A stretch of 64,000 nucleotides of DNA from Escherichia coli (lineage in GTDB: Bacteria > Pseudomonadota > Gammaproteobacteria > Enterobacterales > Enterobacteriaceae): assembly GCF_003334815.1 (NCBI RefSeq), contig NZ_QOWO01000014.1; one strand, given 5' to 3'. Positions 3,001 through 6,000 of the stretch are shown here, in pieces. Made by a program: the position numbers. How positions within the stretch are numbered: position 1 is the stretch's first letter; the number at the start of each line of letters is the position of its first letter.

Positions 3001-6000
3001 AATCCATCCGCTTCGGCCCTTCTGCCGTGGCTTTCATCGCACACACCGTACCGTCTGACTGCGGGTACACCAGCGCTTCAGTAGAAAACACGCAATCCAC
3101 GCCGAGCTTACCTTTACTGTTTTTCACTACGCCAAAATCGCTTTTCAGGCGCTCGCGCAACTTCGCCGCCAGCGGGTCCTGAATCGTTTTCGCCAGATCG
3201 GTAACCTGAATCTGCGTCGGATCAATCTGCCCACCCGCGCCACCGGTTGTGACCAGTGGGATTTTATTGCGCCGACAATAAGCAATCAGCGCCGCTTTGG
3301 GCCGTACACTATCAATGGCATCAATCACGTACGAATAACCCACGCTCATATACTGCGCTACGTTATCCGGCGTCACGAAATCATCCACCACCGTTACACG
3401 GCACTCCGGGTTAATCTGGCGAATACGCTCCGCCATAACTTCCGCTTTTGCCAGCCCAACGTTATCGCGCAGGGCATGAATTTGCCGATTGGTATTGGTG
3501 ACGCACACATCATCCATATCGATAAGCGTGATTGCGCCAATCCCCGTGCGCGCCAGCGCTTCCGCCGCCCAGGAACCGACACCACCGATACCAACCACAC
3601 AAATATGCGCGTCAGCAAACAGTTGCAACGCTTTTTCACCATACAGACGCGCTGTGCCACCAAAACGCTGACGCCATGCATCACTAATTACCACAGACAT
3701 AGCACCTCAGAATTAAAAAGGGCGAGGTTATCCCTCACCCTAAACGCATAAATGCCTGATGCGCTACGCTTATCAGGCCTACATAACTCCTGCAATATTT
3801 TGGATTTGCATGATTTGTAGGCCGGATAAGGCGTTCACGCCGCATCCGGCATGAACAACGCGCACTTAGTCAATAATCAGGATGTGAGGTTACCCCTCAC
3901 CCTGTCATATCCGTAAAAACGGCATACAGAATATCACATCAGCCGCTAAAGACGTTACCTGCGCCCGGGGCGGTTTTCAGCACCCAGACACGTCCATAGT
4001 GGTTGTACCAACCTGCGCGGTGTCCGGCTTCCGGCCCGATCCCTTGATAGATATCGAAGTGTTGGCCTTTGATTGCACCACCGACATCCAGCGCCACCAT
4101 CAGACGCAGTTCGTACTGACCATTAAATTTGCCGTTATTATCCAGCAACGGCACTTCTGCCAGCAAGGTAGTACCTGGCGGAATAATGGAACGATCAGAG
4201 GCAACTGACGCGCGACCAACCAGCGGCACCGCACTTGCCCCTTTCACCGGAGCAAAAGATTGCGGTTTAAAGAAGACGAAAGACGGGTTCTGTTCCAGCA
4301 GCTCGCGAACCTCGGCTTCACTGTGTGTTTCGCCCCAGTGACGAATCGCCTGCATCGACATATCTTCTTTTTTCACTTCGCCACGGTCGATCAGCACCTT
4401 ACCAATGCTGCGATAGGCATGACCGTTTTTCCCTGCATAGCTGAAAAAGTTAAGCGGACTGCCATCACCAAAGTCGATATACCCACTACCCTGCACATCC
4501 ATAATGAAGTTATCCATCAGGGAGTTACTGTAAGCGAGAATATATTTATCACTCAATGCCCCCGCGTAGATCTCCGCACGAGACGGCAGACGACCACGTT
4601 TTGGCGGCATACGGTAAATAGGATACTGGAACTCGCCCTGGCGGGTATGGCGCGCCTGAATTACCGGCGTGTAATAACCGGTAAACTGCACGTTACCATA
4701 GTTGTCGGCACCTTCCATCTGCCAGGCATCAATGCCGAACTGGCGCATATTGCGGGTATCACCGCCTGCGCGCAGCCACTCTTGCACCGCGTTATAAACA
4801 TTACTCTGGTTGCCATACAGACGCGGTGACGAATTACGGATATGGTTAATTTGCTCGGCAAAATCACCGGCGTTAATCGGCGCGCCAACGGCATCTGGCT
4901 GGTTCACCAGAGAGAAAGGCTGGGTAAATTTCCCGTCTTTATATTGCTGTCCGCGATCGGTTGGTTTGGAAGAGCAGGCGGCAAGCATTGCCACAACCGT
5001 GCCCATAAGAAGGTACTTTACCCAACGTCCTTTCATTGTTCTCTTCTTCAGGTTAAAAAATAAGGCGCAACGAAGATAACAAACCGCCGCGTTTAATGAA
5101 ATGAGCAGCCTCTCCCTGACGCAAATTTTGCACAAAAAATAGGCTTTAGTGATTTGTTTTTGTTCAAAATCATGCCAAATCCGTGATCGGGGTAAAAAAA
5201 GGTTGCATGAAAACGCGAGCGGAGTATAGTGCGCATCCACGGACGCGGGGTGGAGCAGCCTGGTAGCTCGTCGGGCTCATAACCCGAAGGTCGTCGGTTC
5301 AAATCCGGCCCCCGCAACCAATTATTGAACACCCTAACGGGTGTTTTTTTGTTTCTGGTCTCCCATAAAAAAGCGCCATTCAGCGCCTTTTTATCATCCC
5401 CTTCTCGCCAGCGTCGCCCCATCGGCAAAATACGCTTTAATCCCCGCAAGAATAGACTCCGCAACTTCCTGCTGGAAAGTCGCCGTTTTCAGTTTACGCT
5501 CTTCCTCAACGTTACTGATAAACGCCGTTTCGACCAGAATGGAGGGAATATCTGGTGCCTTTAGTACGGCAAACCCGGCCTGTTCAACTTGATTTTTATG
5601 CAGCTTGTTGATTTTACCGAGCTTATTCAGTACCGCTTTACCAAACTTCAGGCTGTCGGCAATGGTCAGCGACTGTACCATATCGAACATGGTGTGGTCG
5701 ACATAGCGGTCACCGCTTTTGCTCACGCCACCAATCAAGTCCGAGGCGTTCTGGGTTTGTGCCAGATATTTTGCCGCAGTACTGGTTGCACCTTTGGTTG
5801 AGAGCGCAAACACAGAGGAACCGCTCGGCTGACGACTGGTAAAGGCGTCGGCATGGATAGAGACAAACAGGTCAGCACGCTGTTTCTGGGCTTTTGCTAC
5901 GCGCACTTGCAATGGAATGAAGATGTCTTCATTGCGCGTCATGTACACCTTCATATTGCCCTCTTTCTCGATCAGAGAGCGCAAACGGCGAGCTATTTGC

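What the first reader, a model, noticed from the sequence alone, without database searches (positions are those of the whole stretch)
5244..5360. Only one initiator tRNA-fMet gene where K-12 carries three tandem copies
A single tRNA-fMet gene is followed directly by a terminator and then amiC. As I recall, E. coli K-12 has metZ-metW-metV as three tandem copies at this locus. This is either a real copy-number difference (recombination between repeats) or an assembly collapse of the tandem array.
Basis: partly seen in the sequence, partly recalled or inferred. Interest (0 to 1): 0.3.

Follow-up and report, generated by a model that had tools for sequence, protein, structure and literature searches.

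The report
One-copy initiator tRNA (metZWV) locus
The window carries one initiator-tRNA gene where E. coli K-12 and about 90% of complete E. coli genomes carry three in tandem; this known kind of repeat contraction is seen in 2-4% of public genomes, and the sequence alone cannot show whether the cell or the assembler made it.

Summary
Window 5244-5320 (+) holds one tRNA-fMet gene, identical to K-12 metZ/metW/metV. It sits between mltA and amiC with the K-12 promoter region and terminator. K-12 MG1655 has three copies with a 110-bp period.

This state is not rare. Of 5426 complete E. coli genomes, 109 show the same contiguous one-copy form and 231 have no tandem junction at all. About 117 have two copies, and a few have four to six.

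The closest relative found is strain 52F4, with 7 SNPs over 58 kb. It has three copies, so the contraction is recent or artefactual.

Two lines of evidence pull in opposite directions:
- **For an artefact:** one-copy records cluster strongly by submission series. Five of the 15 genomes with a collapsed glyVXY control array are also one-copy here.
- **For real loss:** glyVXY has the same structure but is one-copy only 15 times. MG1655p has one metZWV copy yet keeps its other tandem tRNA arrays intact.

I cannot decide for this window. My estimate is roughly 55% assembly artefact and 40% real deletion. If real, initiator tRNA gene dosage would drop, with known effects on growth and initiation fidelity. 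Interest is low and the phenomenon is already known.

The parts
3939..5036 (-). mltA, the upstream neighbour, transcribed divergently
   Evidence: Colinear with MG1655 mltA (b2813) with 0 mismatches. The ORF is listed.
5194..5200 (+). A7 run just upstream of the -35 hexamer. It is A8 in K-12, in BR1220, in the closest relative 52F4 and in all 109 one-copy public genomes.
   Evidence: It is the only difference from MG1655 in window 1-5324. The exact 91-nt A7 version occurs in 19 of 5426 genomes. The three I inspected have three tRNA copies and lie on different haplotypes.
5203..5230 (+). metZWV promoter: TTGCAT, a 16-nt spacer, TATAGT, then a GC-rich discriminator at 5231-5238
   Evidence: Read from the sequence and identical to K-12. 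The -10 position agrees with the promoter-down mutations mapped in PMC3017606. The generic consensus scan did not call it because the -35 matches only 3 of 6 bases.
5244..5320 (+). Single tRNA-fMet gene of the fMet1 (metZ/W/V) type, with an encoded CCA end
   Evidence: ARAGORN and Rfam. It is 100% identical to each K-12 copy. The C1xA72 mismatch, the G29-31:C39-41 pairs and G46 are read from the sequence.
5327..5353 (+). Intrinsic terminator of the operon: an 8-bp stem followed by a T run
   Evidence: It is identical to the sequence after metV in K-12.
5394..6647 (-). amiC, the downstream neighbour, transcribed convergently
   Evidence: Colinear with MG1655 amiC (b2817). The ORF is listed.

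Best explanation
This is the ordinary E. coli metZWV initiator-tRNA operon in a contracted, one-gene form. The promoter, the first-copy 5' flank, one tRNA-fMet1 gene, the last-copy 3' flank and the terminator are all intact. Two 110-bp repeat units are missing exactly. A misaligned join between identical 77-bp tRNA repeats produces exactly this result, and such a join can happen in a cell or in an assembler. I rate an assembly or consensus collapse as slightly more likely than a fixed biological deletion for this record. The anatomy is shown directly. The cause is inferred.
For: The deletion is clean and repeat-bounded. The closest genome found, 52F4, has 7 SNPs and 3 small indels over 58 kb and carries three copies, so the change is private and very recent, or not real. 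One-copy records in 5426 complete genomes cluster by submission series rather than by lineage. The counts are at least 12 from the Swiss GF chicken-meat series (roughly 18 chromosomes, several locus haplotypes and genome sizes), 10 from the WP wastewater series, at least 16 from other Swiss series, and 5 from the TUM series. The K-12 pairs J53+ME8067 and MC1061+OV2 each come from a single submission. By my tally of the listed rows, same-series pairs are about 75 times more frequent among 60 sampled one-copy genomes than among 60 sampled multi-copy genomes. One-copy records also appear singly inside clones that otherwise have three copies: O157:H7 Xuzhou21 against the other O157 genomes sampled, and K-12 derivatives against MG1655. 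Five of the 15 genomes with a collapsed glyVXY array are also one-copy at metZWV: MC1061, OV2, O104:H4 2011C-3493, TUM14664 and PapRG-04-4. A homopolymer-length difference (A7 against A8) lies 44 nt from the array, which could be a local consensus problem.
Against: The glyVXY array is structurally equivalent: three identical 76-nt genes with 35/36-nt near-identical spacers. It is one-copy in only 15 genomes against 109 to 231 for metZWV, so a generic collapse does not explain most cases. MG1655p has one metZWV gene but intact glyVXY, leuQPV and argVYZQ arrays, and J53 has an intact argVYZQ array. The rest of the window is clean, with 0 gaps against MG1655 over 44 kb. The A7 allele exists in 19 other genomes, so it need not be an error. 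Real copy-number change at this locus is plausible, because four- to six-copy arrays exist and a collapse cannot create them.
Confidence: 0.55

Rival explanations
1. The deletion is real. Unequal homologous recombination or replication slippage between the identical tRNA-fMet repeats removed two units in this strain's recent ancestry. The cell then has one gene at this locus; metY lies outside the window and was not seen. Because initiator tRNA level follows gene number in K-12, the expected results are less tRNA-fMet, slower growth in rich medium, an advantage in poor medium, and looser discrimination against non-initiator tRNAs at the P site.
For: The junction is exactly what recombination between repeats gives. 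metZWV is one-copy 7 to 15 times more often than the equivalent glyVXY array. MG1655p lost copies only here. Two-copy arrays recur in several O6:H16 records and many others, about 117 genomes in all. Arrays of four to six copies exist. The window's three private length changes are all repeat contractions: A8 to A7, a (CT)n unit near 53674, and the array itself. tRNA-fMet level tracks gene copy number, and low abundance lets non-initiator tRNAs initiate (PMC3017606). [quoted passage not shown] 2014, as summarised in PMC9981150). Deleting metZWV impairs growth under specific conditions (PMC11480407).
Against: The one-copy state follows the submitter far more than the lineage. The closest relative has three copies. 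No public genome combines A7 with one copy.
Confidence: 0.4
2. The single copy is an old, lineage-wide state: an ancestral one-gene locus, or a long-standing clade polymorphism.
For: One-copy genomes occur on several locus haplotypes, with identity classes from 98.1% to 99.7%.
Against: The window is nearly identical to three-copy genomes over tens of kb: 14 mismatches in 44 kb against MG1655 and 7 in 58 kb against 52F4. About 96% of genomes from all phylogroups sampled have tandem copies.
Confidence: 0.03

Closest known systems
E. coli K-12 metZWV operon (tRNA-fMet1 genes metZ, metW, metV)
   Same: Same position between mltA and amiC. The promoter region is the same except for the A7 run, the tRNA sequence is identical, and the terminator is the same.
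   Different: One gene instead of three, and A7 instead of A8 upstream of the -35 hexamer.
One-copy metZWV loci in public E. coli genomes, for example BR1220, J53, MG1655p and O104:H4 2011C-3493
   Same: The same contiguous promoter, tRNA and terminator arrangement. There are 109 of 5426 genomes at 98.1-99.7% identity over 377 nt.
   Different: All of them have A8. None matches the window at 100%.
Copy-number change of tandem initiator-tRNA genes under selection. [quoted passage not shown] 2006 in the reference list of PMC7949028. Fitness effects of tRNAi gene number in E. coli are from Samhita et al. 2014, via PMC9981150.
   Same: The same gene family, and dosage is changed by changing gene number.
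   Different: Those are laboratory selections or engineered strains. Here the direction is loss, in a wild-type background, and it has not been verified to be biological.
Collapse of short tandem repeats in genome assemblies
   Same: Exact loss of whole repeat units bounded by identical copies. Some public genomes also show a collapsed glyVXY array.
   Different: Most one-copy metZWV genomes keep glyVXY uncollapsed.

Membership tests
Bacterial initiator tRNA (tRNA-fMet) | CAU anticodon in a tRNA cloverleaf | tested here: met
   ARAGORN reports tRNA-Met with anticodon CAT. Rfam tRNA scores 61.4 bits.
Bacterial initiator tRNA (tRNA-fMet) | [quoted passage not shown] | tested here: met
   Read from the sequence: 5' CGCGGGG...CCCCGCA-ACCA 3', and anticodon arm TCGGG-CTCATAA-CCCGA. 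The role of the three G-C pairs is described in PMC3017606; the C1xA72 mismatch is mentioned in PMC7949028.
E. coli tRNA-fMet1 (metZ/W/V type, as opposed to K-12 metY, which is fMet2) | G at position 46 (A46 in K-12 metY) | tested here: met
   The variable loop is AGGTC, and the gene is 100% identical to all three K-12 copies. The G46/A46 distinction is stated in bioRxiv 10.64898/2026.04.16.719103.
metZWV operon | Located between mltA and amiC, with its own promoter and terminator | tested here: met
metZWV operon | Three tandem gene copies | tested here: not met
   One copy in the window. Three copies in K-12 and in most of 5426 genomes.
Real copy-number variant, as opposed to an assembly artefact | Read depth and spanning reads consistent with one copy | not testable with these tools
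   No reads are available. Only indirect population evidence was obtained.

The most novel reading that the evidence does not exclude
The loss is real, recent and selected. On this reading a wild E. coli lineage has shed two of its three metZWV genes and also changed the A-tract next to the operon's -35 hexamer. More generally, initiator-tRNA arrays would contract in nature far more often than equivalent elongator arrays (109-231 genomes against 15). That would be a natural counterpart of the laboratory finding that fewer initiator tRNA genes are favoured in nutrient-poor conditions.
Probability: 0.25. Interest if true: 0.35.

Novelty: already known. Interest (0 to 1): 0.15.

Why it matters
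If the loss is real, the locus encodes a third as many genes as in K-12. With an unseen metY, the strain would have two initiator tRNA genes instead of four. In K-12, gene number sets tRNA-fMet level. That level in turn affects growth rate, cold sensitivity when the locus is deleted, and the fidelity with which the ribosomal P site selects the initiator (PMC3017606). If the loss is an artefact, it is a reminder that 2-4% of "complete" E. coli genomes may under-report this tRNA array, which would bias tRNA gene counts used in comparative work. In either case it is a small, already understood kind of variation.

Tried and rejected
- **Is the window K-12?** No. It carries 8.2 kb of ETT2 genes where K-12 has IS2, an element in glyU, and 14 SNPs against MG1655.
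- **A7 as a lineage marker.** Rejected. A7 occurs on very different haplotypes: L006 and L008 are about 1% divergent downstream while L007 is nearly identical. It looks recurrent.
- **Divergent spacers as the explanation for the 122 genomes with neither a tandem junction nor a contiguous one-copy locus.** Rejected. A blastn search with 11-nt words gave the same 5195 genomes. Of the two lowest-ranked matches I inspected, one has a single tRNA gene followed by an island inserted after the array, and one has no annotated tRNA at the locus.
- **A generic assembler collapse as the sole cause.** Not supported. The glyVXY control array is collapsed in only 15 genomes.
- **Papers on the GF strain series, to learn the assembly method.** None found.
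- **Samhita et al. 2014 (PMC4097586).** Not held in the library, so it is cited through papers that summarise it.
- **Consensus promoter scan.** It found nothing, because the -35 matches only 3 of 6 bases. The promoter assignment rests on identity with K-12 and on the published mapping.

Full report
**Observation.** ARAGORN finds one tRNA gene in the whole 64-kb window: tRNA-Met (CAT) at 5244-5320 on the + strand. Rfam's tRNA model matches the same place. The gene has the initiator hallmarks, which can be read directly from the sequence:
- a C1xA72 mismatch;
- three G-C pairs closing the anticodon stem;
- G46, the fMet1 (metZ/W/V) form rather than the A46 form of K-12 metY.

An 8-bp hairpin with a T run follows at 5327-5346. 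amiC then lies on the minus strand from 5394, and mltA lies upstream at 3939-5036. In K-12 MG1655 the same interval holds metZ, metW and metV: three identical 77-nt genes separated by two nearly identical 33-nt spacers. The window aligns to MG1655 without a mismatch up to the end of metZ and resumes at the start of metV. Exactly two 110-bp units are missing.

**What the window is.** It is not K-12.
- From 53997 to 62200 it carries ETT2 type III secretion genes where K-12 has an IS2.
- It leaves all comparators at 63515, inside the 3' end of glyU.
- It is otherwise very close to K-12, with 14 mismatches and no gap over 44 kb.

The closest genome in the collection of 5426 complete E. coli genomes is strain 52F4 from a Swiss calf. 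It is the only genome that shares the window's two otherwise private SNPs at 6240 and 7101. It differs by 7 SNPs and 3 small indels over 58 kb, and it has A8 and three tRNA-fMet genes. The contraction is therefore either very recent or not real.

**How common the state is.**
- A 103-nt probe across a tRNA-spacer-tRNA junction matches 5195 of 5426 genomes, at 10308 places in all. The usual state is two junctions, meaning three copies. A few genomes have three to six junction matches.
- A 377-nt probe that requires promoter, one tRNA gene and terminator to be contiguous matches 109 genomes. The same number was found with a 197-nt probe.
- 3462 genomes have the K-12-like arrangement with amiC directly after the array. 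Among them, 226 have one or two copies, so about 117 have two.
- In about 36% of genomes the match to K-12 stops right after the third tRNA gene, because an island is inserted there.
- That leaves 122 genomes with neither a junction nor the contiguous one-copy form. Of the two lowest-ranked matches I inspected, AVS0754 has a single tRNA gene followed by a type VI secretion island, and a ST648 record has no annotated tRNA-Met at all.
- One genome, OZ501671, has six tRNA-Met genes and an IS1 at the locus.

Copy number in public records therefore ranges from none or one up to six. One-copy records make up 2.0-4.3% of genomes.

**Real or artefact: evidence for an artefact.**
- The one-copy records cluster by submission series. 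The counts are:
  - at least 12 from the Swiss GF chicken-meat series, whose accession range CP172127-CP172217 holds roughly 18 chromosomes of several sizes and locus haplotypes;
  - 10 from the WP wastewater series;
  - at least 16 from other Swiss series (ABW/OW/DR28, STK/STS, STEC, N18);
  - 5 from TUM and 4 from Pap.
- Same-series pairs make up about 4.5% of all pairs in a 60-genome sample of one-copy genomes. They make up about 0.06% in a 60-genome sample of multi-copy genomes. Both figures are my tally.
- One-copy records also occur singly within clones that otherwise have three copies: O157:H7 Xuzhou21, and K-12 derivatives.
- As a control I built the collapsed form of glyVXY, which has three identical 76-nt genes and 35/36-nt near-identical spacers. 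It matches 15 genomes, and five of those are also one-copy at metZWV: MC1061, OV2, O104:H4 2011C-3493, TUM14664 and PapRG-04-4. The base rate for one-copy metZWV is 2-4%. Those five are most simply generic assembly collapses.

**Real or artefact: evidence for real loss.**
- glyVXY should be about as prone to collapse as metZWV, yet it is one-copy 7 to 15 times less often.
- None of the batch-clustered series appears in the glyVXY list.
- MG1655p, with one metZWV gene, has intact glyVXY, leuQPV and argVYZQ arrays. J53 has an intact argVYZQ array.
- Arrays of four to six copies cannot come from a collapse.
- Two-copy arrays recur, for example in several O6:H16 records.
- The biology is favourable. 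In K-12, tRNA-fMet level follows gene number, and low abundance allows initiation by other tRNAs (PMC3017606). Losing some copies is deleterious in rich medium and advantageous in poor medium (Samhita et al. 2014, as summarised in PMC9981150). Deleting the operon is viable but impairs growth under some conditions (PMC11480407). Amplification of initiator tRNA genes under selection in Salmonella is cited from the title of Nilsson et al. 2006 in the reference list of PMC7949028.

Neither a generic collapse nor a purely biological loss explains both the locus specificity and the submitter clustering. I record this as unexplained.

**The neighbouring A-run.** The only other difference from K-12 in the first 5.3 kb is an A7 run at 5194-5200. 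It lies immediately upstream of the -35 hexamer (TTGCAT at 5203-5208, with the -10 TATAGT at 5225-5230), where K-12, BR1220, 52F4 and all 109 one-copy genomes have A8. The A7 version occurs in 19 of 5426 genomes. The three I inspected have three copies and lie on different haplotypes, so A7 looks like a recurrent slippage allele. In this window it sits 44 nt from the contracted array. Against its closest relative, the window's private length changes are all repeat contractions: A8 to A7, one (CT) unit near 53674, and the array itself. That pattern fits a consensus with a slight deletion bias in repeats. It also fits real slippage events, so it does not discriminate.

**Verdict.** The feature is the ordinary metZWV operon with one gene instead of three. 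The mechanism is a misaligned join between identical 77-bp repeats. For this record I put about 0.55 on that join having happened in the assembly and about 0.40 on it having happened in the organism. An old lineage-wide state is excluded by the three-copy near-identical relatives. The finding is already known in kind and of low interest. The reads of this assembly would settle the question at once.

Noticed in passing
window 63493-64000: The last 23 nt of glyU (tRNA-Gly CCC, minus strand) end at 63515. After that the window diverges from MG1655, BR1220 and 52F4. This looks like one end of an element integrated into glyU. No intact tRNA-Gly lies in the window. An 11-bp-period tandem repeat of about 7 copies lies at 63759-63839.
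   Followed up: partly
window 53997-62200: 8.2 kb of ETT2 type III secretion genes are present where K-12 has only an IS2. The same genes are annotated in BR1220 and 52F4, several of them as frameshifted pseudogenes.
   Followed up: partly
window ~53674: A private 2-nt (CT) repeat contraction relative to MG1655, BR1220 and 52F4.
   Followed up: no
window 554-759; 33739-33826 and 33941-34022; 3775-3817: Rfam finds GcvB, the OmrA/OmrB pair and ES036 at the positions expected from K-12.
   Followed up: no
public genomes; L009 (AVS0754), L010 (ST648 CP008697), L011 (OZ501671): In about 36% of 5426 E. coli genomes an island follows the last tRNA-fMet gene directly: type VI secretion genes in AVS0754, sugar-metabolism genes in ST648. 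The ST648 record has no annotated tRNA-Met at the locus. OZ501671 has six tRNA-Met genes with an IS1 between them.
   Followed up: partly
public genomes: One-copy metZWV (109-231 genomes) is far more frequent than one-copy glyVXY (15 genomes) although the two arrays are built alike. One-copy metZWV records also cluster by submitter. This pattern remains unexplained.
   Followed up: partly
L006 (NMBU-W10C18) and L007 (T16R), third tRNA-fMet copy: The copy that aligns to window 5242 onward carries a single-base variant: C17 to T in NMBU-W10C18 and G23 to A in T16R. The tandem copies are therefore not always identical in other strains.
   Followed up: no
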